64,000 nucleotides of DNA, from positions 1,363 to 65,362 of the forward strand of contig DATJHW010000085.1 of assembly GCA_035493615.1 (NCBI GenBank), given 5' to 3'. Position numbers and translations under genes: made by a program. This stretch comes from Candidatus Saccharimonadales bacterium (GTDB lineage Bacteria > Chloroflexota > Limnocylindria > P2-11E). The notes beneath the pieces are model-generated. The model ran no database searches. It saw only the letters and a list, made by a program, of their open reading frames with translations, and was not told the DNA's origin. Below are positions 5,358 through 60,568 of this stretch, in pieces (the first letter of the stretch is position 1; each line of letters opens with the position of its first letter).

Positions 5358-6076
5358 GCCGTCAGCTTCGCGCGGATCGCGTCCAGCTGCTCGGCGCGAA
5401 CGCCGGCCAGGCCGAGGTATGGGGCGGCGCCCCCGAACGCCTCCCGCAGCGCCGCGAGGGTCCGCTCCATCACCCAGGCCCGCTTGGCCACGCCGTCGTC
5501 GACCGCGGCTGCGCGATCGGGATTCTCGGCCTTGAATCGCTCGTACTCGGGGACCAGCTCAGCGTCGCTGGCCGCGTAGTCGGCGACGATCTCGGCATCG
5601 GGCACCCCGAGCGCCGCGAGCAGCGTCGCGATCACGATCCCCGTCCGGTCTCGGCCGGCGACACAGTGCAGCAGGATCGCCGGCTCCGCCTCGGCGATGG
5701 CCCCGATCACGTCCGCGAGCCCGCCGTCCGGGACCGCGATGCGTCGCAGCTCGTCGGCCAGCGTCCCGGCGTGCGCGCCATCGTGGAGGGCCATGATCCG
5801 GGCCGAGGTGAACGGCACCCGCCGGTAGGTCACGCCCTCGCGGTACGGGCTCGCGCTCTCGGCCACCTCGTCGTCGCCGCGGAGGTCGATGACCGTGCGG
5901 ATGCCGTGCGCGCGGACCGCCGCCCGTCCCGCGTCCGTGAGCGTCCCGATCATCGACGCGCGGACCAGCCGCCCGCGGGCCAGCAGGACGTCACCGCACG
6001 TCAGGCCACCGATGTCGCGAACATTGAGGCAGGCGTCCCAGGCGAGACGCCGGTCGGCCGCGACTATGCGCTCCAG
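5354..6076 (-). CDS. Protein-tyrosine phosphatase (Y_phosphatase3-like, CX5R active site)
   Basis: C-terminal about 240 codons of track ORF 5354..7111: LNVRDIGG...IRTVIDLRGDDE...HCVAGRDRTG (CX5R loop). No ATG/GTG/TTG lies between the conserved N-terminus and the upstream gene. The start is placed provisionally at CTG 6076..6074 (ATA 6067..6065 is also possible), so the 5-prime end is uncertain. Confidence 0.7.
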   Translation of the reverse strand: MERIVAADRRLAWDACLNVRDIGGLTCGDVLLARGRLVRASMIGTLTDAGRAAVRAHGIRTVIDLRGDDEVAESASPYREGVTYRRVPFTSARIMALHDGAHAGTLADELRRIAVPDGGLADVIGAIAEAEPAILLHCVAGRDRTGIVIATLLAALGVPDAEIVADYAASDAELVPEYERFKAENPDRAAAVDDGVAKRAWVMERTLAALREAFGGAAPYLGLAGVRAEQLDAIRAKLTA

Positions 6077-8517
6077 CGCGGCGGGCCCGGCGGCCGGATC
6101 TCGGGCGGACGGATGGAGTCGCGCTTCGACTCGTCCCCCAGTGGGATGTGCTCGGACGGCTTCCAGGTCCGGGCCGACGCGAGCTCTTCCTTCGCGAGGA
6201 CGGTGACGCCGAACCGCTGGTAGGTCGAGAGCTCGAAGTTCGGGGTCTCGCCGAGCGCGCCGTGCGGACACACCTCGACGCAGTCGCCGCAGTAGATGCA
6301 GCGCACGACGTCGAGCTCGTAGGTCTGCAGGTCGCGCTCGCGCATCATCAGCGCGCCGGTCGGGCACGTCTCGGCGCACGCGCCGCACGACACGCAGTCG
6401 GTGTAGCTGAGCGAGACGTTCCATGGCGTCGTGACGATCGAGTCGTAGCCGGCGCCCATGAGCCCGTAGCAGTTCGCGCCGATGACGTCCCGGCAGATCC
6501 GCACGCACTGCGTGCAGTTGATGCACTTGTTGAGGTCGCGAAGGATGAAGTCGTGGCTGAAGTCGTACTCGTAGTCGTGGTAGTCGATCGGCTCGGCGCG
6601 GTGGAAGCGGTTCTCGGTGAGACCGTGCTCGAGCGACAGCCGCTGCAGGTGGCAGCGCCCGACGTCGGGGCAGACGCACTGCAGGCAGCGCGCGGCTTCC
6701 TTCTCGGCACCGGCCTTGTCGTAGCCGTTCTCGATGAGCTCGAAGCTCTTCACGCGGTCCGCGAACGGGAGGAATGGCATGCGGACCTGCGGCTCCTCCG
6801 GCTTGTACGGGACGATGTCGATGAGCTCGGGGACCCGCTCCTCTTCGCGGATCTCTTCGGCCACGACGGACATGTCGTCGCCCGCGAGGTAGCGGTCCAT
6901 CGCCTTGGCCGCGAGCTTGCCCTGGGCCACGCACTGGATCACGGTCACCGGCCCCATCTGCGCGTCGCCGCCGGCGAACACTCCGGGTCGGTCGGTCATG
7001 AGCGCGCCGTTCGCGACGATGGTCTCGCGGCGCGTCTTGCGCATGCCCGGCGTCGTCTCCATCCAGTCGAGGACCGGCGACTGCCCGATCGCCGGGATCA
7101 CCGTGTCGCACTCGATGGTGAACTCGGAGCCTTCGACCGGGACCGGCCGGCGCCGCCCGGACGCGTCCGGCTCGCCGAGCGCCATGCGCTGGAACTCGAC
7201 GCCGCCGGCGCGGCCGTTCTTCTCGATGATCCGGACGGGCGCGGCGAAGAACTCCAGCTTGATGCCCTCGTGCTCGGCGTCGTCGACCTCGGTGTAATGC
7301 GCCCCCATCTCCTTGCGGCCCCGGCGATACACCACGGTCACGTCGGCGCCCAGTCGCCGCGACGTGCGCGCGCAGTCGAAGGTGGTGAACCCACCGCCGA
7401 GGACGACGACCTTGTTGCCCACCCCGACCGGCACCGGGTCGCCGGACGCGTTCTGCCGCAGGTAGTTGATCGCTTCGATCACCCCGGGGAGGTCCTCACC
7501 GGGGATGCGCAGCTCGTTGCTCGTCCATGCCCCGATCCCGAGGAAGATGGCGTCGTAGCCCTGGGCGAAGAGGTCGTCGATCGTGAAGTCGCGCCCGAGC
7601 TTCATTCCGCCCTTGAACTCGGCGTCGCGCAGCTGCCACACCGAGTTGAGCTCCTTGTCGAGCTTCACCTTCGGCAGGCGGTATTCGGGGATGCCGTAGC
7701 GGAGCATCCCGCCCTGCTTCTCCATCATGTCGAACACCGTGACGGCGTGACCCTTCAGCGCGCTGTAATACGCGCAGGTGAGCCCGGCCGGGCCGGCACC
7801 GATGACCGCGACGCGCTTGCCGGTCGCGGCCTCCTGCGGGAACGGGGTCGGGGCCTGGTCCATCTCCATGACCAGCTCGCCGGTGTATCCGTGGCACTGG
7901 CAGATGGCGATCTCCTCCTCGACGAGACCGCGCCGGCAGACCTCCTGGCATGGCTTCGGGCACACGAGCCCGAGCGCGTACGGGAACGGCAGGACTTCCT
8001 TCACGAGGCGCGCGGCCTCGACGTGCTGGCCCTTCGCCATCAGCTCGAGGTAGCCGGGGATGTCGATGTGCGTCGGGCAGCCGACCTGGCACGGGGGCAT
8101 GCAGTAGGCGTTGTGGTCGGAGAGGATGTATTCGAGGTTCTGCTTGCGCATGGAGAAGAGGCCGTCGCTCGTCGCGGTGACCTTCATCCCCGGCTCGACC
8201 GCGAGGTGGCAGCTTGGCTGCGGGCGGTCGAAGCCCTCGACGTCGACGAGGCACATCCGGCAGGCCGCCGCCGGCGCGAGCTTCTCGTCGTCGCAGAGCG
8301 TCGGCACGTTGAACCCGGCCCGCTGCGCCGCGCGGAGGATCGACTCGCCGACCACCGCGGTCACGTCCTGCCCGTCGATCGTGATCTGGCAGACCGGCTG
8401 GCCCGAGGGGATCTCGCCATGATGCGAGACCGTCGGGATCTGGGACTCGGAGGGTCCGTAATCCTGGATGAGACTCACGGTCGCGACCTGGTCCTCATGG
8501 CTGCGCCATCGTCTCAT
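6064..8517 (-). CDS. Multidomain iron-sulfur flavoprotein: NuoG-type N-terminal [2Fe-2S] + GltD-like (glutamate synthase small-subunit type) FeS/FAD/NAD(P)H domain + NuoG-type His/Cys 4Fe-4S + NuoI-like 2x[4Fe-4S] ferredoxin
   Basis: 817 aa, with these motifs in order:
- ITIDGQDVTAVVGESILRAAQRAGFNVPTLCDDEKLAPAAACRMCLVDVEG...SC (2Fe-2S)
- CMPPCQVGCPTHIDIPGYLELMAKG...GLVCPKPCQEVCRRG (GltD FeS domain)
- GKRVAVIGAGPAGLTCAYY...GGMLRYGIPEYRLPK and VVVLGGGFTTFDCA...VFAGGD (two dinucleotide folds)
- DLNKCINCTQCVRICRDV
- CVSCGACAETCP...CIYCGDCVEVCPHGALGETPNFELS
The start is ATG 8517 or GTG 8478. Confidence 0.85.
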   Translation of the reverse strand: MRRWRSHEDQVATVSLIQDYGPSESQIPTVSHHGEIPSGQPVCQITIDGQDVTAVVGESILRAAQRAGFNVPTLCDDEKLAPAAACRMCLVDVEGFDRPQPSCHLAVEPGMKVTATSDGLFSMRKQNLEYILSDHNAYCMPPCQVGCPTHIDIPGYLELMAKGQHVEAARLVKEVLPFPYALGLVCPKPCQEVCRRGLVEEEIAICQCHGYTGELVMEMDQAPTPFPQEAATGKRVAVIGAGPAGLTCAYYSALKGHAVTVFDMMEKQGGMLRYGIPEYRLPKVKLDKELNSVWQLRDAEFKGGMKLGRDFTIDDLFAQGYDAIFLGIGAWTSNELRIPGEDLPGVIEAINYLRQNASGDPVPVGVGNKVVVLGGGFTTFDCARTSRRLGADVTVVYRRGRKEMGAHYTEVDDAEHEGIKLEFFAAPVRIIEKNGRAGGVEFQRMALGEPDASGRRRPVPVEGSEFTIECDTVIPAIGQSPVLDWMETTPGMRKTRRETIVANGALMTDRPGVFAGGDAQMGPVTVIQCVAQGKLAAKAMDRYLAGDDMSVVAEEIREEERVPELIDIVPYKPEEPQVRMPFLPFADRVKSFELIENGYDKAGAEKEAARCLQCVCPDVGRCHLQRLSLEHGLTENRFHRAEPIDYHDYEYDFSHDFILRDLNKCINCTQCVRICRDVIGANCYGLMGAGYDSIVTTPWNVSLSYTDCVSCGACAETCPTGALMMRERDLQTYELDVVRCIYCGDCVEVCPHGALGETPNFELSTYQRFGVTVLAKEELASARTWKPSEHIPLGDESKRDSIRPPEIRPPGPPRWSA

Positions 8518-9742
8518 AGCGGCGCGACCGCGCGGGTCGGCACGTACCGGTCGGGCAGGCGTGGCCGTCGATGTGCGAGCGGTAGTCGTCGGCGAATTCG
8601 CTCATCGTCGTCTTCAGGATGGACGCGCTCGTGATCCCGAAGCCGCAGAGCGAGAACTGCTCGAGATGGTTCGCGAGCTCGCCGAGCCACGGCAGGTCGT
8701 CGGCACGACCGAGGTCGGAGTAGATCCCCTCGAGGATGCCCTCGACCCGCTTCGTGCCGACCCGGCACGGGACGCAGATGCCGCAGGTCTCCTTCGCGAG
8801 GTAGTCGAACAGCTTCGCCGCCTCGTTCACGATGCACACCGCTGGGCCGATGACCCGGATCTGCGCGGAGCCGAGGTGGGTGCCCGCCGCCTTGAGCGAC
8901 GCGTAGTCGAGGGCGACGCCGGTCCGCGTCGAGTTGAGGATGCCGCCGGTCGGACCACCGACGTGCAGCCCTTTCAGCGTCCCGCCCGTTGCGCCCCCGG
9001 CCCTCGAAACGATGTCCCCGAGCGTCTCGCCGAACGCGACTTCGTAGACGCCGGGCGATGCGACCGCACCGGTCACCGAGACGAGCTTGGTCCCGGGCGA
9101 CGACTCGGTCCCGACGCGTCGGAACGCCTTGGCGCCGTCGCGCACGATCAGGGGCAGCGCCGCGAGCGTCTCGGCGCTCGACACGACCGTCGGACGAAGG
9201 AGTAACCCCTGGCGCGCCGGGTACGGCGGCCGTTGCCGGGCCATCGCCCGGCGCGATTCGAGCACGGCGAGCAGCGCGGACTCCTCGCCGCCCATGAACC
9301 CACCGGGCCCGAGCGCGACCTCGATCTCGAGATCGCCCAGGGTGGGCCGCGCCGCTTCGAGCGCGCGGTCGGCCGCGCGCTTGGCGCTTTCGGCATCCGG
9401 ACGGAGGTAGAGATAGCCGCTCGTCGCGCCCACGGCGGCGGCAGCGATCGCAAGGCCCTCGATCACGAGCTCGGGCTTCTTCAGGAGGATCGTGCGCGCG
9501 AGCGGGCTGCCCGGGTCCGCGTCGTACGCGTTCGCGACGACGTACGCGCTGCCGCCGGCAGCGGCGGCGCGGGCGGTCGCGAGCTTGCGCGCGAGGGGGA
9601 ACCCTGCCCCGCCGCGGCCGCGCAGGCCGCTCGCTTCGATGACCCCGATGAGCTGGTCGGGCCCCATCGACCTGGCGCGGTCGCGCTCGTGCGCCGCGTT
9701 GACGTCCGTGTCGAGGATCCGGTACGCGGCGCTAGTCGGCAA
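8495..9742 (-). CDS. nuoF: NADH dehydrogenase flavoprotein subunit F-like (51-kDa type)
   Basis: 415 aa with GLRGRGGAGFP, ANAYDADPGS (divergent NADESEPG), GGEESALL, ETCGICVPCRVG and SLCGFG motifs. The TTG start 9742..9740 overlaps the upstream gene end by 11 nt. Confidence 0.85.
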   Translation of the reverse strand: MPTSAAYRILDTDVNAAHERDRARSMGPDQLIGVIEASGLRGRGGAGFPLARKLATARAAAAGGSAYVVANAYDADPGSPLARTILLKKPELVIEGLAIAAAAVGATSGYLYLRPDAESAKRAADRALEAARPTLGDLEIEVALGPGGFMGGEESALLAVLESRRAMARQRPPYPARQGLLLRPTVVSSAETLAALPLIVRDGAKAFRRVGTESSPGTKLVSVTGAVASPGVYEVAFGETLGDIVSRAGGATGGTLKGLHVGGPTGGILNSTRTGVALDYASLKAAGTHLGSAQIRVIGPAVCIVNEAAKLFDYLAKETCGICVPCRVGTKRVEGILEGIYSDLGRADDLPWLGELANHLEQFSLCGFGITSASILKTTMSEFADDYRSHIDGHACPTGTCRPARSRRYETMAQP

Positions 9743-10451
9743 ACGCGGGCTCCAGCGGGTGCGTCACCTCGTGCTCGTGCAGCCGATCGTGCGATGGAGC
9801 GGGGCTCTGCTCCGGCCACAGGCCGGCGATCGCGACGTTGCCGGTGTAGCGGCGGCCGCCGCGCGGGATCGGCGTGCCCTGTCCGTCCGGCGCGCCGCGG
9901 AAGTTCGAGAGCAGCGACGCGGTCGTGTAGAGGTGCGTCATCTGCACGCCGAACGCAGCCGCGATCCGCTCGGCCGCGCTCCACGGGAGGTAGCCATACG
10001 CGTCGTTCGTCGCGTAGAGCACCCGCGTCATCCGGTCCGCGCCCGCGGGCGTCTCGTGAAGGATTCGGTCGACGATGCCGAGGTCGAGCCCGCGCTCGGC
10101 TTCCGCGGGCACGGTGAGCACCGCGTTCGACAGCGGGCGGCGGTCGCCGTACGGCGCCGTCTGGACCATCCGGATGCGGTAGTAGGAGGCGCGCGGCGCG
10201 ATCGGCGGCCGCTTTCGGAAGGCGTTGCGGAACGTGTACGAGATCGAGATCGCTCGCGGCGGGCAGGCCTTCTCGCACATCAGGCACGACTCGCACTTGA
10301 AGATGCTGGTCTCGGGCTCGAGCAGCAGCGCGATGAGCCCGCGGCTGCGCTCCGGCAGCTCGCGCTTCTCGTACGGGTACTTGCGCGTGACGCTCTTGCG
10401 CATGAACACGTGACTGAGCGTCCGCTTCATGCCGTTGAGGATCCCGAGCAT
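9732..10451 (-). CDS. Chimeric NuoI N-terminal half (single CxxCxxCxxxCP) fused to a NuoE-like N-terminal helical domain
   Basis: Real part of track ORF 9732..10736 starts at ATG 10451..10449 (TAATG overlap with the nuoD stop).
- MLGILNGMKRTLSHVFMRKSVTRKYPYEKRELPERSRG...FKCESCLMCEKACPPRAISI is NuoI-like.
- LYATNDAYGYLPWSAAERIAAAFGVQMTHLYTTASLLSNF is like the NuoE N-terminus.
Only 4 Cys occur in the whole protein. Confidence 0.7.
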   Translation of the reverse strand: MLGILNGMKRTLSHVFMRKSVTRKYPYEKRELPERSRGLIALLLEPETSIFKCESCLMCEKACPPRAISISYTFRNAFRKRPPIAPRASYYRIRMVQTAPYGDRRPLSNAVLTVPAEAERGLDLGIVDRILHETPAGADRMTRVLYATNDAYGYLPWSAAERIAAAFGVQMTHLYTTASLLSNFRGAPDGQGTPIPRGGRRYTGNVAIAGLWPEQSPAPSHDRLHEHEVTHPLEPAFAD

Positions 10452-11590
10452 TACCGGTCCACGTCGCCGAGCACGATGTCGATCGAGCCGAGGATCGCCA
10501 CGACGTCCGCGACGAGCCGGCCCTGAAGAAGCCACGGCAGGATCTGCAGGTTGTTGAACGACGGGCCGCGCATTTTCGCCCGGAACGGGTTCGTCGCCGA
10601 GCCGCCCGAGCTGATCATGTAGATGCCGACCTCGCCCTTGGCGCCCTCGACCGTGTAGTAGGCCTCGCCCTTCGGGCACTTCCACACGTGGCCGAGCCGC
10701 GCGCGCACGGCGCCACCGGGGAGGTTCGCGATGCACTCGCGCACGATGTCGATGGCCCGGCGCATCTCGCCGAGCCGCACCTTGTACCGCGCGTACGCGT
10801 CGCCCTCGACCGAGGTCACCGACTTGAAGCTCTCAAGCTCGGGGTAGATGGAGTACGGGCGGTCCTTCCGGAGGTCCCAGTCGACCCCCGACGCGCGGAG
10901 GATCGGGCCGGTGAGGCCGTACTGGGTCGCGACGACCCCGGGGATGCCGCCGACGCCGATGGTCCGCTCGAGGAAGATCTCGTTCGTCTCGAAGAGCTCG
11001 ACGTAGTCCCGCTCGATGTGCCCGGCGAACCGGTCGAGGAACCGCTCGAGCTTGGCCAGCATGCCCGGCGGGAAGTCGTAGAGCACGCCGCCCGGACGGA
11101 AGTAGTTGAAGTTCATGCGCGACCCGCAGAGCTCCTCGAACAGGTCGAGGATCTCCTCGCGGTCGCGGAAGCAGTAGAGCATCGGCGTCGTCGCGCCGAC
11201 ATCGAGGCCGTAGGTGCCGAGCCATACGAGGTGCGACGCGCAGCGCGACAGCTCGTCCACGATCACGCGGATGTACTCGGCCCGCCGCGGGACGTCGATC
11301 CCGCCGATGGCCTCCATCGCGCCGGCGTAGCAGTGCTCCTGCAGCATGTTGGAGACGTAATCGGCCTGGTCGGCGTAGCGGATGCCCTGGTGGAATGTTC
11401 GCCACTCGAAGATCTTCTCGATCCCCCGGTGCAGGTAGCCCATGACCGGGATGCACTCGACGACCTTCTCGCCCTGGAGCTTCAGCACGAGCCGGAGGAC
11501 GCCGTGGGTCGATGGGTGCTGCGGCCCGAGGTTGAGGATGAGCTCCTCGGTCTCGAGGCCCTCGTCGCTCTCGATGACCGGGAGCTTCAC
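10451..11590 (-). CDS. nuoD: NADH-quinone oxidoreductase subunit D (49-kDa type, not fused to NuoC)
   Basis: 379 aa: LNLGPQHPSTHGVLRLVLKLQGEKV...GYLHRGIEK...ends SIDIVLGDVDR. GTG start 11590 with GAGGAAG 9 nt upstream. There are no NiFe-hydrogenase Cys motifs. Confidence 0.9.
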   Translation of the reverse strand: MKLPVIESDEGLETEELILNLGPQHPSTHGVLRLVLKLQGEKVVECIPVMGYLHRGIEKIFEWRTFHQGIRYADQADYVSNMLQEHCYAGAMEAIGGIDVPRRAEYIRVIVDELSRCASHLVWLGTYGLDVGATTPMLYCFRDREEILDLFEELCGSRMNFNYFRPGGVLYDFPPGMLAKLERFLDRFAGHIERDYVELFETNEIFLERTIGVGGIPGVVATQYGLTGPILRASGVDWDLRKDRPYSIYPELESFKSVTSVEGDAYARYKVRLGEMRRAIDIVRECIANLPGGAVRARLGHVWKCPKGEAYYTVEGAKGEVGIYMISSGGSATNPFRAKMRGPSFNNLQILPWLLQGRLVADVVAILGSIDIVLGDVDR

Positions 11591-11641
11591 CGAGGCGGCT
11601 TCCTCGATCGCCGCACGCTCGCGGTCGATGGTGGTCAGCGC

Positions 11642-12226
11642 TCAGCCACCTTTGAAGATCTTCTCGCGAAGCCGGAGCACGCCCTCGGTCAATGCCTCGG
11701 GCCGCGGCGGGCAGCCCGGCACGTACACGTCGACCGGGACCACGGTATCGACGCCCTGGAGTGTCGCGTAGCTGTCCCAGAACTCGCCCCCGGAGCTCGC
11801 GCAGTTGCCCATCGCGATGACCCACTTCGGCTCGGGCATCTGCTCGTACAGGCGCCGCAGCCGCGGAGCCATCTTGTGGGTGACGGTACCCGCGACGATC
11901 ATCACGTCGGCCTGGCGGGGGCTCGAGCGGAACACCTCGGCGCCGAAGCGCGCGAGATCGTGGTGCGACGCGGCGCTCGCCATCATCTCGATCGCGCAGC
12001 ACGCGAGGCCGTAGCCGAGCGGCCACGGGCTCCGCGAGCGGGCCCAGTTCACGAGCATGTTCACCGACGTGAACACGATGTTGTCGTCGCTGGCGGTGAC
12101 GCCGGAGATCATCCGCGGCTCGTGGCCGCCCATCCCGGTCTGGGTGGTCAGCGGCCGGCGCTGGATGACGTCCTCTTCGAAATCGATGGGATGGACGTCG
12201 AGGGGGGCCTTCTGATCGATCGCCAT
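11642..12226 (-). CDS. nuoB: NADH-quinone oxidoreductase subunit B (20-kDa type)
   Basis: 194 aa with [18 protein letters not shown] and [11 protein letters not shown] (N2 cluster ligands). Confidence 0.9.
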
Positions 12227-12237
12227 CAGATGTCAGT

Positions 12238-31726: not shown

Positions 31727-33055
31727 CTAGAAGCGCACCGACTGCGCCGTGTCCAGCAGGGCCCCCGGAGCGAGGCCGGCGGCCAGTACGGCGATCGCGA
31801 TGACCAGCGCGACGGCCGTTCCCGCGCGCATCCGCGGCGGCGCGACCGCGTCGAGGCGCGGCGGGGCGAAGCATGCGAGCACGATCCGCGCGCACGCCAT
31901 GGCACTCGCGACGCTCGCCAGCGCGCCGAGAACGACGAGCCAGAGCAGCTGCGCGCGGATCGCCGCCTCGAAGACGTAGACCTTCGCGAGAAAGCCGACG
32001 GTCGGCGGAACGCCGACGAGCCCGAGCGCGACGAGCGCGAGCGCCAACACGGCCAGCGGCCGCCGCCGCGCGAGCCCGGCCAGATCGTCGAGCACCGGCG
32101 AGCGTTGCGGCAGGATCGCGATCGCGGCGAAGAGGCCGAGCGCCTGCGCGCTGTAGGTGGCGAGCGCGAATGCGGCCGCCGGCAGCGCGGCGCTCGCGGC
32201 CGCGACGGCCACGAAGCCGAGCTGCGAGATCGTGGCGTACCCCGCTAGCCGGCGCACGCGGTGCTCCGCGATCGAGGCGACAGCGGGTACGGCGAGCGCG
32301 AACGCCGCGAGCGACGCGAGCGAGACCTGCCAATCGACTCCGACCTCGCCGGTCGCGGTGGCCGCGACGAGCCGCAGCAGCGCGCCGATGACCGCGACGT
32401 TGATCACGACCGACCATCGGTGTCCCGGCGCGATCGCGACGTGCGACACCAGACCGGCGAGCGTGAGCCCCAGCCCCGCGAGGTACAGCGGGTTGTGGGT
32501 CGCCCGGCCGAGACCGGCGTACCCCGTCTCGCCCGTGGCCGCGTAGAGGAGCGCGATGCCGTAGAGCGCGACGGCCGAGCTCGTTGCCCCGAGGAGGAAG
32601 TGCCGCAGCACGCCCTCGTCCCGCGCCGGCGCCGAGCGGCCGGTGAGCACGTAGAGCGGGATCGCGAGCAGCGCGAGCCCGACGAACAGGACCACGAGGT
32701 CCACCGCTGACACGACGACGACCGCACCGCACGCGGCGAACAGGGCGAGCGCGGGCTCGTCCTTCGACCGCGCCATGCGTCGCGGCTCGGCGGCGGCGAG
32801 CACGCAGGACACCGCGGTGACGATCCCGATGAGTACGACGAAGAAGACGCTCGCGCCATCGCGCGTGAGGCTCGGCGATCCGCCGCCGGTCCCGTTCGCG
32901 AGCGCGACCCCGGCGACCGCGACGCTCTCGAGCGCACCGATCCAGGCGAGGGTGCGCGGGCCGGACTGCCGGGGGATCGCGAGGACCGCGGTGAGCGCCG
33001 CACCCGCGGCCAGGACCAGTGCCGGAGCGATCGCGCTCAGCTCGGCGGCGCTCAT
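31727..33055 (-). CDS. nuoN: NADH-quinone oxidoreductase subunit N-like antiporter subunit
   Basis: Real start is ATG 33055 (MSAAELSAIAPALVLAAG...), 442 aa. Proton-antiporter-type membrane protein. The start overlaps the nuoM stop. Confidence 0.8.
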   Translation of the reverse strand: MSAAELSAIAPALVLAAGAALTAVLAIPRQSGPRTLAWIGALESVAVAGVALANGTGGGSPSLTRDGASVFFVVLIGIVTAVSCVLAAAEPRRMARSKDEPALALFAACGAVVVVSAVDLVVLFVGLALLAIPLYVLTGRSAPARDEGVLRHFLLGATSSAVALYGIALLYAATGETGYAGLGRATHNPLYLAGLGLTLAGLVSHVAIAPGHRWSVVINVAVIGALLRLVAATATGEVGVDWQVSLASLAAFALAVPAVASIAEHRVRRLAGYATISQLGFVAVAAASAALPAAAFALATYSAQALGLFAAIAILPQRSPVLDDLAGLARRRPLAVLALALVALGLVGVPPTVGFLAKVYVFEAAIRAQLLWLVVLGALASVASAMACARIVLACFAPPRLDAVAPPRMRAGTAVALVIAIAVLAAGLAPGALLDTAQSVRF

Positions 33056-34458
33056 CGCCGCAGCTGGGTCAGCGCAGGGCCCGTCCGATCGGCAAGATCG
33101 CCGATGGCGCGCGGTACCAGGCCGACCAGGACGACGAGCGCGAGCAGAACGATGACCAGCCCGCGCTCGCGCCATCGGAGATCCCATCCCCGCGCCGTCG
33201 GCAGGCCGAAGAACACTGCGCGCAGCATGCCGGCCCCACCGGCGGCGATGACGACCGGGACGAGCGACGCGAGCAGACCGATGCCCGGTGACACCGCGAA
33301 GGCCGCGGCGAGGATCGACAGCTGGCCCGGCGCGCCGCTCGTACCCGGCAGACCGATCGATCCCAGGACGGCGAGAACGAACAGCGCCATCAGCACCGGA
33401 GCCTGCGCCGCGAGGCCGCCCGGGCCGAAGCCGAACGCGCCGATGCGCCGGGCGAGTGCGACGGCGAGCAGCATGAGGATCGCGATGACGAGCCCGTGCG
33501 AGATGCTCGCGAGCAGTGCGCCGATGAGCGCTCCGGGGGTCGCGAGGAAGATGCCGACGGCGATGACGTCGATCAGGGCGAGGCTGACGTAGGCGATGAA
33601 CCGGCGGGTGTCGCGTTGGCGGGTCGCGAGGATCGCGCCGTACAGCCCTCCCACGGTCGCGAGCGCGAGGAGATACGGCTGCAGATCGGCCATCCCGCGC
33701 GGAAAGAGCGGAAGGCAGATCCGCGCGATCGCGTAGACGGCGGTCTTCGAGATGACGCCCGCGAGCACGATCGCCACCGGTGCCGGCGCCGCGACATGGA
33801 CGCGCGCGAGCCAGCCGTGGAACGGGAAGAGCGGCAGCCGCATCGCGAAGGCGGCAAGGAACAGCAGCGCGAGGAGGATCTGGCTCGTCTCGGCCAGGCG
33901 GTAACCGCCGAGCGCGGCGAACGAGAACGTGTGCGCTCCGACCCCGAGCGCCAGGATCCCGGTCAGCAGGAGCGCGCTGCCGGTCAGCCACATGACCGCG
34001 AGCCGCCGCGTAGCCGCGCGGCGGTCAGCGCCGCCCCAGCCCCAGAGCAGGAGTACGAGCGGCACGAGCACCGCTTCATGAGACGCGAAGAACAGGAGCA
34101 GGTCGCGCGACACGAACACGCCGGCGACCGCCATCTGCAGGAGCGACCAGAGCGCGAAGTACGCCCGCGGGCGCGGAACGGCGCCGGACGCGGCGGCACC
34201 CGCGGCGAACAGCGCGCCGCTCAACATCAGCATGACCGCGGACCAGCCGTCCCAGCCGACCGCGAGCTCGGCGCCGAGCGGGGCGGCCCAGTAGTACAGC
34301 TCGACCGGCCCCCCGCCGACCCCGAACCAGACCGCGGCGGCCGCCGCCGCCGCGGTCAGCACGCCGGAGAGCACGGCGAGGGCACGCGCGAAGCCGCCGG
34401 TGGGCAGCGCGCACGCGGCTGTGACGACGAGCGGGATGAGCAGGACCGCGAGGACCAT
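33052..34458 (-). CDS. nuoM: NADH-quinone oxidoreductase subunit M-like antiporter subunit
   Basis: Real start is ATG 34458 (MVLAVLLIPLVV...), 468 aa. LPLFPFHGWLARVHVAAPAPVAIVLAGVISK motif. TGATG overlap with nuoL. Confidence 0.85.
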   Translation of the reverse strand: MVLAVLLIPLVVTAACALPTGGFARALAVLSGVLTAAAAAAAVWFGVGGGPVELYYWAAPLGAELAVGWDGWSAVMLMLSGALFAAGAAASGAVPRPRAYFALWSLLQMAVAGVFVSRDLLLFFASHEAVLVPLVLLLWGWGGADRRAATRRLAVMWLTGSALLLTGILALGVGAHTFSFAALGGYRLAETSQILLALLFLAAFAMRLPLFPFHGWLARVHVAAPAPVAIVLAGVISKTAVYAIARICLPLFPRGMADLQPYLLALATVGGLYGAILATRQRDTRRFIAYVSLALIDVIAVGIFLATPGALIGALLASISHGLVIAILMLLAVALARRIGAFGFGPGGLAAQAPVLMALFVLAVLGSIGLPGTSGAPGQLSILAAAFAVSPGIGLLASLVPVVIAAGGAGMLRAVFFGLPTARGWDLRWRERGLVIVLLALVVLVGLVPRAIGDLADRTGPALTQLRR

Positions 34459-36260
34459 CACCGGGCGCTCCACGTCCAGAACGCCAGCAGCACGACCGTC
34501 CCCACGAGCAGCAGCGCGTGCTGGGCCCGCGCGCTCGCGGGGATCGCGCCGCGCAGCGCGTCCGACCCGCGCTGCGCGAGCGTGCCGACGCCGGCCACGG
34601 CCTGATCGTTCACGCGCTCGGCGCCCTCGTCGAGCTCGCGCGCGACGGTGCGGAAGGGGATCGCGACCGCCCGGTCGTAGAGCGCATCGACGCCAAGGCC
34701 GCCACGGGCCCAGCGCATGGCGCGCTCGATGCGCTCCGCGCCTCGAAGGCCACGGTGATACCCGAGCCACGCGGCGATCGAAGATGCGAGCACGACGGCG
34801 AATATCGCCCCGAGCAGCCACGCCGGAGCTTCGTCGGCAGGCCCGCTCCCGATCGGCAGGAGCCCGGCGCTGACCAGGGCGCCGAAGGCGAGCGCGCCGA
34901 TCGCGAGGAGCACCAGCGACACGTCCTGCAGCCGCCGTGGCGCGTCGGTCGCGCGTACCGCCGCAGGCGGCGCCGCGAACATGAGCGCGAAGAGACGCAC
35001 GCCGGCGAACGCGGACGCGGCGACGGCCAACAGCACGAGCGCGGTGAGGAGCGCATCGCTCTCCGAGAACGCCGCGCTCACGATGGCGGCAATGCCGAAG
35101 AAGCCTGCCGCAGGCGGGATCCCGATGAGCGCCAGCGTGCCGATGCCGAACGCTCCCGCGGTCCAGCGCATCCGCCAGCCGATCCCGCCGCGGCGCGCGA
35201 TATCCGATTCGTCACCGGTCGCGCGCCGCACCGAGCCGGCGCCGAGGACCAGCACCGCCTTCACGACGGCGTGCGCGATGAGCTGGAAGCGCGCCGCGAA
35301 GAGCGCGCCCAGACCAGCGGCGACGAACATGAGCCCGACCTGCGAGATCGTCGACCAGGCGAGGACGCGCCGCACGTCACGCTCGGCGATCGCGACCACC
35401 GCCGCGCCGAGCGCGGTGAACCCGCCGATGATCGCCGCGGCCTGCAGCACCTCAGGCACGAGCACGGAACGCATCCGCATCAACAGCACGACCCCGCCCG
35501 TCACGGCCACCGTCTGGAGGAGTGCGGACACCGGCGTGGGCGCTTCTGTGGCGTCGGAGAGCCACCCATGGAGCGGCGCCTGCGCGGACTTGGCGAGCGC
35601 GCCGATCAGCAACAGGACGCTGGCGACGATCGGCGCACCGCCGATCGTGCTCCCGTGCTCGAGCGCGACGCCACTGAGCTGCGCGAGGTCCACGGTGTGG
35701 AACTCGGCGAGGAGCAGCAGCGTGCCGGCGACAAGCGCCGCGTCCCCGATCCGGTCGACCACGAACAGCTTCGACGCGGCCGCCGCCGCGGCAGCGTGAT
35801 CGCGGTGATGCCCCACGAGCAGGTAGGCGGCAACGCCGGCGAGCTCCCACCCCGCCACGATGAGGAGGAGGTTGGCGCCGAGCACGACGAGGAGGGTCCC
35901 GGCGACCTGGAGCGAGAACGAGGAGAAGTACCGCTGCAGACCGCGGTCGCGGGCAAGGTAGCCGATCGAGTAGAGCGCGATGAGCGCCGAGACGCCGGCG
36001 ATCGCCAGCGCGACCGCGAGCGTCGCGCTGTCGACGGTGAGCGCGAGGTCCGCGCCGGGAAGCGGCAGCCACGTGGCGATGAAGGCATCGACCGTCGGAC
36101 GATCGCGCAGGGTCGCGAGCATCGACCCGCCGGCGCCGAACGACAGGAGCAGCGCGAGCGTCGTGGCGATGCCGAGGGTCCGGCGACCGAGCCGGCCGCC
36201 GAGCACCGCGATCGCGATCGCGTTCGCGAGCGGGATCGCGACGACGAGCACGAGCGTCAC
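34458..36260 (-). CDS. nuoL: NADH-quinone oxidoreductase subunit L
   Basis: 600 aa. GWELAGVAAYLLVGHH, AKSAQAPLHGWLSDATEAPTPVSALL, and a long C-terminal amphipathic extension. Confidence 0.9.
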   Translation of the reverse strand: MTLVLVVAIPLANAIAIAVLGGRLGRRTLGIATTLALLLSFGAGGSMLATLRDRPTVDAFIATWLPLPGADLALTVDSATLAVALAIAGVSALIALYSIGYLARDRGLQRYFSSFSLQVAGTLLVVLGANLLLIVAGWELAGVAAYLLVGHHRDHAAAAAAASKLFVVDRIGDAALVAGTLLLLAEFHTVDLAQLSGVALEHGSTIGGAPIVASVLLLIGALAKSAQAPLHGWLSDATEAPTPVSALLQTVAVTGGVVLLMRMRSVLVPEVLQAAAIIGGFTALGAAVVAIAERDVRRVLAWSTISQVGLMFVAAGLGALFAARFQLIAHAVVKAVLVLGAGSVRRATGDESDIARRGGIGWRMRWTAGAFGIGTLALIGIPPAAGFFGIAAIVSAAFSESDALLTALVLLAVAASAFAGVRLFALMFAAPPAAVRATDAPRRLQDVSLVLLAIGALAFGALVSAGLLPIGSGPADEAPAWLLGAIFAVVLASSIAAWLGYHRGLRGAERIERAMRWARGGLGVDALYDRAVAIPFRTVARELDEGAERVNDQAVAGVGTLAQRGSDALRGAIPASARAQHALLLVGTVVLLAFWTWSAR

Positions 36261-36517
36261 GCCGGCCGCCGGATCCGGGAGACGAGCGCATACCCGACGA
36301 TGGCCTGCGCGGCGGCGACCGCGATCGCGATGAGCGCGGCGATCTGACCGTCGAGCTCGCGGAAGCCGACCCCCGAGGCCGCGAAGGTCAGAGTCGCGGC
36401 CGCGACCATGAGCTCGACGCCGACGAGGCGTCCGGCCGCCGACGTCCGAACGACGGTGCCGACCGTGCCGACCGCGAACAGGACCGCGCCGAGTGCGAGG
36501 TACGCGGCTGTGGTCAC
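36257..36517 (-). CDS. nuoK: NADH-quinone oxidoreductase subunit K
   Basis: 86 aa with three TM helices and conserved Glu residues (GVELMVAA..., AIAVAAAQAIVG). 4-nt overlaps on both sides. Confidence 0.8.
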   Translation of the reverse strand: MTTAAYLALGAVLFAVGTVGTVVRTSAAGRLVGVELMVAAATLTFAASGVGFRELDGQIAALIAIAVAAAQAIVGYALVSRIRRPA

Positions 36518-37017
36518 CGCACGGGCTGCCGGTCGCGCCGCGCCGCTCGCGCGGCGACCAGCGCCGCGAACAGGACGACGAGCGATCCGCCAGCCGCGAC
36601 CGCGCCGCGGCCGGTCAGCAGACCGCCAAACGCGGCGACGTCGTATCCATCACCGGACCGCACGGAGACGTTCACGGGAACCTCTCCAGCGACCACGGCG
36701 ACGGCGAGGAGCCCGAGCAGCGTCACGCCGAGCACGAGGGCGAGGGCCGTCACCGTCGGACCGTCGGCAGCTTCGTGGACACGCGACGTCGGCACCGTGA
36801 GGTGCACGACGAATGGCAAGGTCGAGAACAGTGCGACCGCGATCACCGCGGCTGCGACCATCGGCGCCGCCAGTCCCGCGTAGAGAACGGCCAGTGCGAG
36901 GAGCGTGCCGGCGAGCGCGACGCCGGCTGTGCGGGCATCGCGATGGGCGACCGCGGTGACGGCACCCGCGACGCAGACCGCGCCCGCGACCGTGAAAACG
37001 ATCTGGTCGATGCTCAT
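36514..37017 (-). CDS. nuoJ: NADH-quinone oxidoreductase subunit J
   Basis: 167 aa. MSIDQIVFTVAGAVCVAGAVTAVAHRDARTAGVALAGTLLALAVLY is like NuoJ N-termini. First gene of the J-N block. Confidence 0.75.
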   Translation of the reverse strand: MSIDQIVFTVAGAVCVAGAVTAVAHRDARTAGVALAGTLLALAVLYAGLAAPMVAAAVIAVALFSTLPFVVHLTVPTSRVHEAADGPTVTALALVLGVTLLGLLAVAVVAGEVPVNVSVRSGDGYDVAAFGGLLTGRGAVAAGGSLVVLFAALVAARAARRDRQPVR

Positions 37018-58734: not shown

Positions 58735-58737
58735 GGC

Positions 58738-59556: not shown

Positions 59557-59559
59557 ATA

Positions 59560-60526: not shown

Positions 60527-60568
60527 GAGTCGTCCTCCCCGGTGATGTGCTCCGGATTATGGGCGCGG

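What the first reader, a model, noticed from the sequence alone, without database searches (positions are those of the whole stretch)
6064..8517. 817-aa three-way fusion: NuoG-type [2Fe-2S] head, GltD-like FAD/NAD(P)H core, NuoG His/Cys cluster plus NuoI-like 2x[4Fe-4S] tail
**One reading frame carries, in order:**
- a plant-type 2Fe-2S motif (C-x10-C-x2-C...C in LCDDEKLAPAAACRMCLVDVEG..PSC)
- the GltD/NfnB-type FeS domain (CMPPCQVGCPTHIDIPGYL...VCPKPCQEVCRRG)
- two dinucleotide-binding folds (VAVIGAGPAGLTCAYY; VVVLGGGFTTFDCA)
- CINCTQCVRICRDV
- CVSCGACAETCP...CIYCGDCVEVCPHGALGETPNFELS

**Why this stands out.** The last stretch looks like the C-terminal half of NuoI, whereas the upstream chimera gene keeps only the NuoI N-terminal half. 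In effect NuoI seems to have been split and its halves redistributed. The GltD core inserted between NuoG-like pieces suggests a second nucleotide (NADPH?) site wired into the FeS chain.
Basis: partly seen in the sequence, partly recalled or inferred. Interest (0 to 1): 0.7.

Follow-up and report, generated by a model that had tools for sequence, protein, structure and literature searches.

The report
NADPH-wired complex I subunit, split NuoI
The 817-residue gene is real and encodes an iron-sulfur flavoprotein of a known type (StnC/NfnA) that here ends in half of the complex I subunit NuoI, and relatives' operons suggest it belongs to an undescribed complex I variant that gained a combined NADH and NADPH input module by insertion of a three-gene cassette into nuoI.

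Summary
The ORF is real: minus strand, 6064-8517, 817 aa.

The head, the GltD insert and the NuoG-type FeS part match the solved StnC/NfnA subunits colinearly (E 1e-166 to 1e-145), so that architecture is already known. What differs is the end. The formate-dehydrogenase-like domain is replaced by the C-terminal half of NuoI. The gene two upstream carries the complementary N-terminal half of NuoI fused to a NuoE N-domain. The two halves tile the NuoI model end to end.

The gene sits in a conserved operon: nuoB, nuoD, [NuoI-N::NuoE'], nuoF, [this gene]. In more distant relatives the same cassette sits exactly where nuoI belongs in operons of the 11-subunit type (A-B-C-D-H-[I'E]-F-[G'I'']-J-K-L-M-N).

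Best reading: this is the NuoG-equivalent subunit of a non-bifurcating, dual-input (NADH at FMN, NADPH at FAD) peripheral arm of a complex I variant. Whether it is attached to the membrane in this organism is not shown. A nuoJKLMN-like cluster lies 19.5 kb away, but nuoA, nuoC and nuoH are not in the window.

Verdict: a new variant of a known kind; interest about 0.64.

The parts
6064..8517 (-). Whole 817-aa ORF: StnC/NfnA-like FeS flavoprotein ending in a NuoI C-terminal half (NuoG-equivalent subunit)
8170..8388 (-). N-terminal plant-type [2Fe-2S] domain (residues 44-116; C75, C86, C89, C103), equivalent to NuoG N1b / HydA FS2
   Evidence: Pfam Fer2_4, 1.9e-17. The four Cys are invariant. pLDDT is 80-88.
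8101..8115 (-). First part of the His-ligated [4Fe-4S] motif (H135-x3-C139); the GltD insert begins right after it
   Evidence: An uninterrupted HoxU-like homolog (L080, H-x3-C-x2-C-x5-C) aligns to residues 45-139 and 616-765. H135 and C139 are invariant.
6673..8100 (-). GltD/NfnB-type insert (residues 140-615): two [4Fe-4S] sites (C143, C147, C611, C614; C186, C190, C194 with K173), FAD fold (GAGPAG 240-245) and NADPH fold (GGGFT 374-378, YRR 397-399)
   Evidence: Pfam Fer4_20 and Pyr_redox_2. NfnI-L 5jca_L: E 7.6e-87 and TMt 0.76, rmsd 3.5 A. Ligands are invariant. Assignment of individual Cys to clusters is inferred from motif comparison.
6652..6672 (-). Second part of the His-ligated cluster motif (C616-x5-C622), after the insert
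6343..6555 (-). NuoG/HydA-type ferredoxin-like 2x[4Fe-4S] domain (residues 655-725; C665, C668, C671, C675 and C708, C711, C714, C718)
   Evidence: Pfam Fer4_Nqo3 at 657-723. Aligns without gaps to StnC/NfnA. Ligands are invariant.
6148..6321 (-). NuoI C-terminal half (residues about 733-790): one CxxCxxCxxxCP motif (C740, C743, C746, C750) followed by the NuoI-specific ETPNFELSTYQR segment
   Evidence: Top full-length matches are NuoI/TYKY second halves. TIGR01971 positions 69-112. Ligands are invariant.
8495..9742 (-). NuoF-like FMN/NADH subunit (415 aa) with the N3-type [4Fe-4S] motif; core only, without the extra FeS domains of bifurcating B subunits
   Evidence: Pfam Complex1_51K, SLBB and NADH_4Fe-4S. 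Best PDB hits are HydB/NfnB/StnB, matching only their core (e.g. 7p5h_B 178-567 of 626).
10161..10451 (-). NuoI N-terminal half (residues 1-97 of the 239-aa chimera) with one CxxCxxCxxxCP motif (C53, C56, C59, C63)
9873..10091 (-). NuoE-type N-terminal helical domain (chimera residues 121-193); the thioredoxin-like [2Fe-2S] domain is absent (only 4 Cys in the whole protein)
   Evidence: Matches NfnC 9bov_C 20-91 and StnA 8oh5_A 18-89. Pfam 2Fe-2S_thioredx covers positions 2-65 of 145 only. Full-length NuoE is present in distant family members.
10451..11590 (-). NuoD (379 aa) with the complex-I-type QHPSTHG and DY quinone-site motifs; no NiFe cysteines
   Evidence: Pfam and NCBIfam. NdhH 6hum_H 3e-104 and Nqo4 2e-99.
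11642..12226 (-). NuoB (194 aa) with N2-type ligands (ACC..., GNC..., GCPP)
   Evidence: NCBIfam NuoB 243 bits against a cutoff of 116. Pfam Oxidored_q6.
31727..37017 (-). nuoJ-, K-, L-, M-, N-like membrane genes on the same strand, 19.5 kb away; a possible membrane arm (association not shown)

Best explanation
**What the gene encodes.** It encodes the NuoG-equivalent subunit of a variant complex-I-type NAD(P)H dehydrogenase. The protein is an StnC/NfnA-like iron-sulfur flavoprotein. It has a [2Fe-2S] head, then a GltD/NfnB-type FAD/NADPH domain with two [4Fe-4S] clusters inserted into the loop that binds the His-ligated cluster, then a 2x[4Fe-4S] NuoG-type domain. It ends in the C-terminal half of NuoI instead of the inert formate-dehydrogenase-like domain of StnC.

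**How the partners fit together.** The complementary N-terminal half of NuoI is fused to a cluster-less NuoE N-domain in the gene two upstream. The two orphan CxxCxxCxxxCP motifs are proposed to assemble between the two chains into one NuoI-like 2x[4Fe-4S] domain. That domain would staple the nucleotide module onto NuoB (cluster N2) and NuoD (quinone site), which are encoded in the same operon.

**Proposed electron flow.**
- NADH -> FMN (NuoF) -> N3 -> [2Fe-2S] -> hub.
- NADPH -> FAD -> two GltD clusters -> His cluster -> hub.
- Both inputs converge on the NuoG-type clusters and leave through the split NuoI to N2 and quinone.

The enzyme is not electron-bifurcating, because the FeS domains that define bifurcating Bfu enzymes are missing.

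**Evolution.** The arrangement looks like a Stn/Nfn-type three-gene cassette (E-F-G) inserted into nuoI of an 11-subunit-type complex I operon.

**Shown:** domain content, ligand conservation, complementary NuoI halves, operon conservation, and the position of the cassette in relatives.

**Inferred:** inter-chain cluster assembly, the electron path, NADPH use, quinone reduction, and membrane attachment in this organism.
For: **Architecture.**
- Pfam domains.
- Colinear match to StnC 8oh5_C (1e-159), NfnA 9bov_A (3e-166) and 9n5u_A (1.5e-145) over residues 43-745.
- Foldseek gives the same top hits.
- In StnC this fold binds FAD and NADPH and passes electrons one at a time down the FeS chain (PMC10482914).
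- The YRR motif and all ligands are invariant.

**Insertion point.** It lies inside the H-x3-C|C-x5-C motif.

**Split NuoI.**
- The two pieces align to complementary halves of the same solved NuoI chains and of the NuoI HMM.
- The joined halves give one NuoI hit over positions 2-112 of 121 (87 bits). The same test with the L080 pair gives 111 bits over 1-114.
- The chimera's four Cys and the NuoI N-terminal motifs are invariant across a family that diverges down to 22% identity.

**Operon.** B-D-chimera-F-fusion, with overlapping or near-abutting genes, is found in essentially every Limnocylindria locus with enough upstream sequence (about 40).

**Family context.**
- L078, L165, L167, L171: nuoA-B-C-D-H-[chimera]-F-[fusion].
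- L079, L161: D-H-[chimera]-F-[fusion], followed by J in L079.
- L080: H-[chimera]-[F::GltD]-[HoxU-like::NuoI-C]-J-K-L-M-N.
- Sources.
- The cassette therefore occupies the nuoI slot of the nuoABCDHIJKLMN order (PMC11238625).

**NuoB and NuoD.**
- The window NuoB and NuoD are 80% and 58% identical to those of the L167 A-B-C-D-H operon.
- NuoD keeps the His38 and Tyr87 equivalents, and its best solved match is NdhH of 11-subunit NDH-1.
- A nuoJKLMN-like cluster is present in the window.
Against: - No nuoA, nuoC or nuoH is detectable in the 64-kb window, nor within +/-10 kb in about 40 Limnocylindria loci or the two Ktedonobacteria loci examined.
- The Ktedonobacteria operons also lack nuoD.
- Whether these genomes also carry a separate canonical nuo operon could not be checked.
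- The AF2 model has pLDDT below 50 for all cluster-binding regions and for residues 562-817, so the tail and its pairing have no structural support. A multimer prediction was not possible.
- The joined NuoI halves score below NCBI's curated NuoI cutoff (87 against 113 bits).
- Motifs b and c have a spacing (21 residues) that would also allow an intramolecular ferredoxin domain.
- The same split connector occurs in a soluble 2-oxoacid-oxidoreductase-linked enzyme (L163), so the module is not tied to membranes.
- One locus (L065) has the gene without partners.
Confidence: 0.6

Rival explanations
1. A soluble, non-bifurcating NADH/NADPH diaphorase or transhydrogenase descended from Stn/NfnABC. 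In Limnocylindria and Ktedonobacteria the NuoB/NuoD/NuoI pieces are only a terminal FeS module (an acceptor other than membrane quinone, or a relic), and the complex does not dock on a membrane arm.
For: - nuoA, nuoC and nuoH are absent from the window and from all +/-10-kb flanks of Limnocylindria and Ktedonobacteria loci.
- nuoD is absent from the Ktedonobacteria operons.
- The same split-NuoI connector is used in a soluble Por-linked enzyme (L163).
- Two nucleotide sites joined by an FeS chain could in principle equilibrate NADH and NADPH.
Against: - NuoB is 80% and NuoD 58% identical to orthologs in A-B-C-D-H operons.
- The quinone-site His and Tyr of NuoD are kept.
- The NuoI N-terminal segment (TxxYPYEK...RSRG) is invariant in Limnocylindria and Ktedonobacteria but degenerate in the soluble Por-linked member P0348.
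- A nuoJKLMN-like cluster lies in the same window.
- Relatives L167 and L171 also keep J-N away from the A-B-C-D-H-cassette operon, so dispersal of nuo genes is normal in this lineage.
Confidence: 0.25
2. A genuine electron-bifurcating Stn/Nfn-Bfu transhydrogenase (NADH + reduced ferredoxin + 2 NADP+ <-> NAD+ + oxidised ferredoxin + 2 NADPH), with the nuoB/nuoD genes merely adjacent.
For: The best solved matches of all three proteins are Bfu-type subunits: StnC/NfnA for the fusion, HydB/NfnB/StnB for NuoF, and NfnC/StnA for the NuoE part.
Against: - The NuoF homolog matches only the core of the B subunits and lacks their N-terminal [2Fe-2S] and C-terminal 2x[4Fe-4S] domains.
- The NuoE part has no [2Fe-2S] domain.
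- These are the features that define Bfu enzymes and their ferredoxin site (PMC9304861, PMC10482914).
- nuoB and nuoD are translationally packed with the cassette and conserved with it.
- The hosts are mainly aerobic soil Chloroflexota (own knowledge).
Confidence: 0.05
3. The last two Cys motifs (b at 708-718, c at 740-750) form an ordinary intramolecular 2x[4Fe-4S] ferredoxin domain. The resemblance to a NuoI half is only local, and the chimera's single motif binds a cluster on its own or with motif a.
For: Pfam dicluster models span 703-754 as one domain. The 21-residue spacing between b and c is ferredoxin-like (read directly from the sequence).
Against: - Motifs a and b with their 32-residue spacer align without gaps to the a+b dicluster domain of the solved StnC/NfnA structures.
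- The similarity to NuoI extends well beyond the Cys motif, to ETPNFELSTYQR...KEEL.
- An orphan NuoI first half is always encoded alongside, and both orphan motifs are invariant.
- The two halves abut at the same point of the NuoI profile.
Confidence: 0.08
4. Artefact: a frameshift or assembly join creates a false fusion of separate genes.
For: None was found. High-GC DNA does give long spurious ORFs, for example the antisense 828-aa ORF at 6148-8634.
Against: The same full-length architecture is seen in more than 100 independent assemblies, including the T. carboxidivorans genome (5.6-Mb contig) and a closed Ktedonobacterales MAG chromosome. A single colinear alignment to solved StnC/NfnA covers the protein. 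GC3 is 0.94.
Confidence: 0.01

Closest known systems
StnC of Sporomusa ovata StnABC (PDB 8oh5) and NfnA of NfnABC / Nfn-Bfu (Caldicellulosiruptor saccharolyticus 9bov, Thermococcus sibiricus 9n5u)
   Same: Same order and same insertion point: [2Fe-2S] head, GltD/NfnB-type FAD/NADPH domain with two [4Fe-4S] clusters, His-ligated cluster, 2x[4Fe-4S] NuoG-type domain. Identity is 37-40% over about 700 residues. In StnC the FAD is non-bifurcating and only feeds the FeS chain (PMC10482914).
   Different: - It has no C-terminal formate-dehydrogenase/molybdopterin-like domain. The protein ends in a NuoI C-terminal half instead.
- The partner B and C subunits lack the extra FeS domains needed for bifurcation.
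- It is encoded with nuoB and nuoD.
- The FeS branch that is a dead end in StnC (C1/C2) is here the probable exit (inference).
Respiratory complex I (NuoA-N), in particular NuoG, NuoI, NuoE and NuoF
   Same: NuoB, NuoD and NuoF are recognisable complex I subunits. The head and FeS domains are NuoG-like, and the two half-proteins together cover NuoI. In relatives the genes sit inside nuoA...N operons.
   Different: - NuoI is split between two polypeptides.
- NuoE lacks cluster N1a.
- NuoG lacks its large C-terminal domain and carries an FAD/NADPH domain.
- The nucleotide-module genes lie at the nuoI position (after nuoH), not between nuoD and nuoH.
- nuoA, nuoC and nuoH are not in the window.
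11-subunit complex I-like enzymes (nuoABCDHIJKLMN; cyanobacterial NDH-1, Desulfitobacterium, Dehalococcoidia)
   Same: The relatives' operons equal this gene order with a cassette placed in nuoI. The window NuoD's best solved match is cyanobacterial NdhH. These enzymes are thought to dock varied electron donors (PMC3144371, PMC11238625).
   Different: Here the donor module is fused genetically to both halves of NuoI, rather than being a separate, unknown or ferredoxin partner.
Predicted Nuo-Bfu, Mbh-Bfu and Por-Bfu enzymes (Schut et al. 2022, PMC9304861)
   Same: HydABC-type modules are embedded in the middle of complex-I-like, hydrogenase or pyruvate-oxidoreductase gene clusters. L163/L164 resemble a Por-Bfu.
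   Different: Those classes are defined by a full BfuB (with a C-terminal ferredoxin domain) and a BfuC [2Fe-2S], and are predicted to bifurcate. The held text of that paper does not mention NuoI at all, nor a GltD domain within Nuo-Bfu. The window's B and C homologs lack those domains.
NAD+-reducing soluble [NiFe] hydrogenase (HoxEFU-YH)
   Same: The module logic is the same: a NuoE/F/G-like diaphorase joined to a NuoB-like small subunit and a NuoD-like large subunit. The HoxU model matches the head and FeS parts (NF005745).
   Different: NuoD here has complex-I quinone-site motifs and no NiFe cysteines. A NuoI-like connector and a GltD domain are present.

Membership tests
StnC / NfnA (BfuA subunit of Nfn-Bfu transhydrogenases) | N-terminal [2Fe-2S] domain, then a GltD/NfnB-type FAD/NADPH domain inserted in the His-cluster loop, then a NuoG/HydA-type 2x[4Fe-4S] domain | tested here: met
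   (E 1e-166 to 1e-145, residues 43-745)
StnC / NfnA (BfuA subunit of Nfn-Bfu transhydrogenases) | C-terminal formate-dehydrogenase/molybdopterin-like domain with its own [4Fe-4S] (StnC 683-1172; shorter in T. sibiricus NfnA) | tested here: not met
   The protein ends at 817. Alignments to the 1172-1178-aa chains stop at about residue 745 of the query, roughly 697 of the target. No molybdopterin Pfam domain was found.
Bfu (HydABC-type) electron-bifurcating family | BfuB with an additional C-terminal 2x[4Fe-4S] ferredoxin domain (and an N-terminal [2Fe-2S] domain), and BfuC with a [2Fe-2S] cluster (PMC9304861) | tested here: not met
   The NuoF homolog has only Complex1_51K, SLBB and NADH_4Fe-4S, and matches only residues 178-567 of HydB. 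The chimera has 4 Cys in total and only positions 2-65 of 145 of the NuoE profile.
Bfu (HydABC-type) electron-bifurcating family | Ferredoxin-dependent coupled (bifurcating) activity | not testable with these tools
   Requires enzyme assays.
NuoI (complex I 2x[4Fe-4S] subunit, TIGR01971) | Both CxxCxxCxxxCP motifs and both NuoI-specific flanks in one polypeptide, scoring above the curated cutoff | tested here: not met
   Each polypeptide has one motif. The halves score 44.6 and 45.0 bits. Joined in silico they score 87.1 bits, against a cutoff of 113.05.
NuoI (complex I 2x[4Fe-4S] subunit, TIGR01971) | The sequence covers the whole NuoI model, and NuoI is the best-matching family | tested here: met
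   The joined halves cover profile positions 2-112 of 121 in a single hit. NuoI is the top family for each half and for the joined sequence.
[quoted passage not shown] | NuoB with N2 ligands and NuoD with quinone-site His/Tyr and no NiFe cysteines | tested here: met
   NuoB scores 243 bits against a cutoff of 116. NuoD passes NF004739 (430 against 360). QHPSTHG, DY and the C-terminal DIVLGDVDR are present.
[quoted passage not shown] | Membrane and linker subunits NuoA, NuoC and NuoH encoded with the rest | tested here: not met
   None is found in the window by tblastn or in the flanks of Limnocylindria and Ktedonobacteria loci. They are present in relatives L078, L165, L167 and L171. The rest of this genome could not be searched.
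[quoted passage not shown] | Antiporter-like and small membrane subunits NuoJ, K, L, M, N | tested here: inconclusive
   A J-K-L-M-N-like cluster lies at 31727-37017. NuoJ scores below the Pfam cutoff. A physical or regulatory link to this operon is not shown.
[quoted passage not shown] | Quinone reduction coupled to proton pumping | not testable with these tools
   Requires biochemistry.
GltD (glutamate synthase small subunit) | Stand-alone protein of about 470 aa that partners GltB and scores above the curated GltD cutoffs | tested here: not met
   TIGR01317 scores 208.9 against 447.7, and TIGR01318 scores 291.9 against 482.95. The domain is an insert inside a NuoG-like protein, and no gltB is adjacent.

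The most novel reading that the evidence does not exclude
Some Chloroflexota and Actinomycetota (Thermoleophilia) possess a proton-pumping complex I that gained its nucleotide-oxidising module independently of the classical NuoEFG acquisition. A Stn/Nfn-type three-gene cassette was inserted into nuoI of an 11-subunit enzyme. The 2x[4Fe-4S] NuoI domain is therefore built from two polypeptides, and the enzyme has two dinucleotide sites (NADH at FMN, NADPH at FAD). On this reading it would be the first respiratory complex I with a dedicated NADPH entry. It could also act as a quinone- or pmf-linked NADH/NADPH transhydrogenase.
Probability: 0.4. Interest if true: 0.8.

Novelty: new variant of a known kind. 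Interest (0 to 1): 0.64.

Why it matters
**A candidate donor for the 11-subunit enzyme.** What donates electrons to 11-subunit complex I-like enzymes has been an open question (PMC3144371, PMC11238625). Here a donor module is physically written into the operon and into NuoI itself. That gives a concrete and testable case of how a nucleotide module can be recruited, apparently separately from the NuoEFG event.

**A possible NADPH entry into the respiratory chain.** The system would place an NADPH site on a complex-I-type FeS chain. This is relevant to how abundant aerobic soil Chloroflexota balance their NADH and NADPH pools: more than 477 matching stretches were found in one metagenome scan.

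**A rare design and a useful comparison.** A 2x[4Fe-4S] ferredoxin fold whose two clusters would each be ligated by two different polypeptides is an uncommon design. The set also offers a natural 'de-bifurcated' relative of Stn/NfnABC, which is useful for testing which domains bifurcation needs.

**An annotation gap.** Public annotation currently calls these proteins 'FAD-dependent oxidoreductase', 'formate dehydrogenase major subunit', 'NuoE', 'ferredoxin' or 'hypothetical'.

Tried and rejected
- **Plus-strand reading.** Translating the stated coordinates on the plus strand gives a meaningless frame. The gene is on the minus strand.
- **AF2 model of the 817-aa protein.** It is confident only for the [2Fe-2S] head and the flavin core. 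Residues 562-817 have pLDDT below 50, so it says nothing about the tail.
- **Search for paralogous NuoD or NuoB.** This was meant to reveal a second, canonical complex I. Both searches returned only orthologs at 75% identity or more in the 120 rows listed, so they were uninformative.
- **Metagenome scan with the chimera alignment.** The first alignment was too diverse to give search patterns. The narrower one returned only Limnocylindria-type loci, which confirmed abundance but added no diversity.
- **Search for nuoA/C/H/J-N.** Nothing was found in any fetched Limnocylindria or Ktedonobacteria flank.
- **Literature searches.** Searches for a split nuoI, a GltD-containing complex I, or Limnocylindria complex I found only StnABC, NfnABC/Bfu, an mbx-like operon with a GltD-type subunit (PMC4758237), and general complex I papers.
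- **Rejected readings.**
  - Glutamate synthase small subunit: fails the curated cutoffs and has no GltB partner.
  - Formate dehydrogenase major subunit (the JGI label): no molybdopterin domain.
  - [NiFe] hydrogenase module: NuoD has no NiFe cysteines.

Full report
**1. The observation**

The ORF at 6064-8517 is on the minus strand, with ATG at 8517 and 817 codons. The plus-strand translation is meaningless.

Pfam finds Fer2_4 (44-116), Fer4_20 (139-219), Pyr_redox_2 (235-533), Fer4_Nqo3 (657-723) and a 4Fe-4S dicluster (703-754).

The window is about 70% G+C, so long spurious ORFs are common. One example is the antisense 828-aa ORF at 6148-8634. This ORF, however, has GC3 of 0.94. It also has hundreds of homologs of about 800 aa in independent assemblies:
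- Candidatus Limnocylindria, 75-99% identity.
- Ktedonobacterales and Thermogemmatispora, about 61%.
- Dehalococcoidales, about 63%.
- These include the T. carboxidivorans genome (5.6-Mb contig) and a closed Ktedonobacterales MAG chromosome.

A frameshift or assembly join is therefore excluded. Homologs mostly begin 9-13 codons further in.

**2. What the protein is**

Against solved structures the protein gives one colinear match over residues 43-745:
- NfnA of C. saccharolyticus NfnABC (9bov_A), 2.8e-166.
- StnC of S. ovata (8oh5_C), 1.3e-159.
- T. sibiricus NfnA (9n5u_A), 1.5e-145.

A Foldseek search with an AF2 model returns the same three first. The flavin core superposes on NfnI-L (5jca_L) with TMt 0.76.

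The 2Fe-2S head, GltD insert and NuoG-type FeS arrangement is therefore the known StnC/NfnA architecture. In StnC this domain binds FAD and NADPH and passes single electrons down an FeS chain without bifurcating (PMC10482914).

An uninterrupted HoxU-like relative (L080, motif H-x3-C-x2-C-x5-C) aligns to residues 45-139 and 616-765. The 476-residue GltD domain is thus inserted inside the His-ligated cluster motif, between H135-x3-C139 and C616-x5-C622.

In an alignment of 28 homologs (59-94% identity) the following are invariant, and K173 (StnC K170) is nearly so:
- all ligands: C75/86/89/103; H135/C139; C143/147; C186/190/194; C611/614/616/622; C665/668/671/675; C708/711/714/718; C740/743/746/750;
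- the FAD fold;
- the NADPH-type YRR motif (397-399).

My reading of these motifs is one [2Fe-2S] and five [4Fe-4S] clusters within the chain, plus one orphan half-ferredoxin motif.

**3. The tail and the upstream chimera**

StnC and NfnA continue after motif b into a formate-dehydrogenase-like domain. This protein does not.

Residues about 735-785 instead match the second half of NuoI/TYKY chains, including the NuoI-specific segment after the Cys motif: 8qby_I 99-149, 2fug_9 95-136.

The 239-aa protein encoded two genes upstream (9732-10451, minus strand) matches two things:
- the first half of the same NuoI chains (8qby_I 27-86, 2fug_9 10-71);
- then the N-terminal helical domain of NuoE-type subunits (NfnC 9bov_C 20-91, StnA 8oh5_A 18-89).

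This chimera has only four cysteines, forming one CxxCxxCxxxCP motif, and no thioredoxin-like [2Fe-2S] domain.

NCBIfam's NuoI model covers positions 2-71 in the chimera and 69-112 in the tail. Joined in silico, the halves give one hit over positions 2-112 of 121. The score is 87 bits, the sum of the halves, and is below the curated cutoff of 113. The equivalent pair from L080 gives 111 bits over positions 1-114.

Inter-chain assembly of the two clusters remains an inference. The AF2 model is unreliable beyond residue 562, and a joined or multimer prediction was not possible.

**4. Context**

On the minus strand the operon reads nuoB (11642-12226), nuoD (10451-11590), chimera, nuoF-like (8495-9742), then this gene. 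Gaps are 51 nt or less, or the genes overlap.

The five-gene order recurs in about 40 Limnocylindria loci. In practice this is every locus with enough upstream sequence, except L065. The two Ktedonobacteria loci have B-chimera-F-fusion without nuoD.

The NuoF homolog is closest to bifurcating B subunits (HydB 9e-87, NfnB, StnB). It matches only their core and lacks their N- and C-terminal FeS domains. By the criteria of PMC9304861, the set is therefore not a Bfu enzyme.

NuoD is a complex-I-type protein:
- QHPSTHG, DY and the C-terminal DIVLGDVDR are present, and there are no NiFe cysteines.
- The best solved match is cyanobacterial NdhH, followed by T. thermophilus Nqo4.

**5. The wider family**

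An exhaustive profile-free search with the chimera finds a small family: 54 representatives below 1e-10. Distant members carry a full NuoE with its [2Fe-2S] cysteines. One (Thermoleophilia) is a NuoI-N::NuoE-N::NuoF triple fusion.

Their gene contexts are decisive:
- L078 and L165: nuoA-B-C-D-H-[chimera]-F...
- L079: D-H-[chimera]-F-[861-aa fusion]-J.
- L161: D-H-[chimera]-F-[fusion].
- L167 and L171: A-B-C-D-H-[chimera with truncated NuoE]-F-[793/797-aa fusion], followed by unrelated genes.
- L080: H-[chimera]-[NuoF::GltD, 1048 aa]-[HoxU-like::NuoI-C, 265 aa]-J-K-L-M-N.
- Sources.

The cassette thus occupies exactly the nuoI slot of the 11-subunit order nuoABCDHIJKLMN (PMC11238625). The NuoI N-half is fused to the first cassette gene and the NuoI C-half to the last. 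The simplest reading is insertion of an E-F-G-type cassette into nuoI. This is an inference.

The window's NuoB, NuoD, chimera and fusion are 80, 58, 49 and 60% identical to those of L167.

A further variant (L163/L164) couples the same split connector to a full Bfu-type B subunit. It also fuses a 2-oxoacid:ferredoxin oxidoreductase beta (TPP) domain to the fusion's C-terminus. The connector is therefore modular. In that soluble member the NuoI N-terminal 'TxxYP' segment is degenerate, whereas it is invariant in the Limnocylindria and Ktedonobacteria proteins.

**6. Membrane arm**

The window holds a nuoJ-, K-, L-, M-, N-like cluster at 31727-37017 on the same strand, 19.5 kb away. It holds no nuoA, nuoC or nuoH. 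None was found in any Limnocylindria flank either.

L167 and L171 show that keeping J-N apart from the rest is normal in this lineage. Whether nuoA, C and H exist elsewhere in this genome, and whether a separate canonical complex I exists, could not be tested. The paralog searches returned only orthologs.

**7. Mechanism (best-supported)**

The best-supported mechanism is a non-bifurcating, two-input peripheral arm. NADH enters at FMN (NuoF) and NADPH at FAD (the GltD insert). Both chains converge on the NuoG-type clusters. Electrons leave through the cluster branch that is a dead end in StnC, then pass through the split NuoI domain to N2 in NuoB and the quinone site of NuoD.

Shown: domains, ligands, complementarity of the halves, and gene linkage.

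Inferred: cofactor occupancy, NADPH specificity (by homology to StnC), the electron path, quinone reduction, and membrane docking.

The rivals are laid out in their own section. The main one is a soluble diaphorase or transhydrogenase; the others are a true bifurcating Stn/Nfn enzyme, intramolecular b+c pairing, and artefact.

**8. Novelty**

The first three-quarters of the protein belong to a known, structurally solved kind. Three things are new relative to everything I could find in the paper library:
- the split NuoI;
- the loss of the bifurcation-specific domains;
- the placement of an NADPH-bearing module in complex I operons at the nuoI position.

I rate this as a new variant of a known kind. 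It has real interest for the evolution of complex I and for the question of what feeds 11-subunit complex I-like enzymes.

Noticed in passing
window 31727-37017 (minus strand): A nuoJ-like (weak), nuoK-like (86 aa), nuoL-, nuoM- and nuoN-like gene cluster with no nuoH, nuoA or nuoC next to it. It is preceded by unrelated genes (a 288-aa protein with no Pfam hit, a likely lipoprotein, an ECF sigma/anti-sigma pair). The very strong AT skew at 32-36 kb reflects these hydrophobic genes.
   Followed up: partly
L163 4544-7726 and L164 (ENA ERZ27313369 / ERZ27313387): A 1060-aa protein made of [2Fe-2S] + GltD + NuoG FeS + NuoI C-half + the TPP-binding beta domain of a 2-oxoacid:ferredoxin oxidoreductase. 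It is encoded after a ferredoxin, an OFOR alpha subunit, a NuoI-N::NuoE chimera and a full Bfu-type B subunit. This looks like a Por-linked, probably bifurcating relative that uses the same split connector.
   Followed up: partly
L080 2076-6023 (Logan SRR22388304): In this complete H-...-JKLMN operon the GltD domain is fused to the C-terminus of NuoF (1048 aa, with an N-terminal [2Fe-2S] domain) instead of being inserted in the NuoG-like protein. The NuoG-like protein is a 265-aa HoxU-type protein ending in the NuoI C-half. The NADPH domain has therefore been attached in two different ways within the family.
   Followed up: partly
L165 10001-11824 (P0287; cluster members labelled Thermoleophilia): A triple fusion, NuoI-N half :: NuoE N-domain :: NuoF (607 aa), follows nuoA-B-C-D-H. 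The family therefore extends to Actinomycetota.
   Followed up: partly
L065 (VBEU01000052.1), fusion gene at 10001-12409: This is the only locus with ample upstream sequence where the fusion gene (86% identical) has no nuoF, chimera, nuoD or nuoB within 10 kb. A DegT-type aminotransferase gene lies upstream instead. It may be a rearrangement or a chimeric metagenome contig.
   Followed up: partly
Alignment A1 (P0359, P0375 versus P0272, P0284, P0348): Within the chimera family the NuoE [2Fe-2S] (N1a-type) cysteines are intact in some members, partly lost in others, and the whole domain is deleted in Limnocylindria and Ktedonobacteria. This suggests repeated loss of that cluster.
   Followed up: no
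window 6148-8634 (plus strand): An 828-aa antisense ORF covers the whole gene. It is a typical shadow ORF of 70% G+C DNA and not a gene.
   Followed up: yes
window 10451-11590 (NuoD), around residues 295-306: Relative to NdhH, Nqo4 and mitochondrial 49-kDa subunits, the alignment breaks here, and about 15-25 residues of the canonical proteins have no counterpart (a shortened loop).
   Followed up: no
window about 5354-6060 (minus strand), immediately downstream of the gene: An ORF with a protein-tyrosine-phosphatase signature (HCVAGRDRTG) starts just after the fusion gene's stop codon. Whether it is co-transcribed is unknown.
   Followed up: no
window 58396-60556 (minus strand): Gas-vesicle genes GvpG and GvpL/F lie next to a nickel superoxide dismutase gene. 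This is unexpected company for a soil Chloroflexota contig.
   Followed up: no
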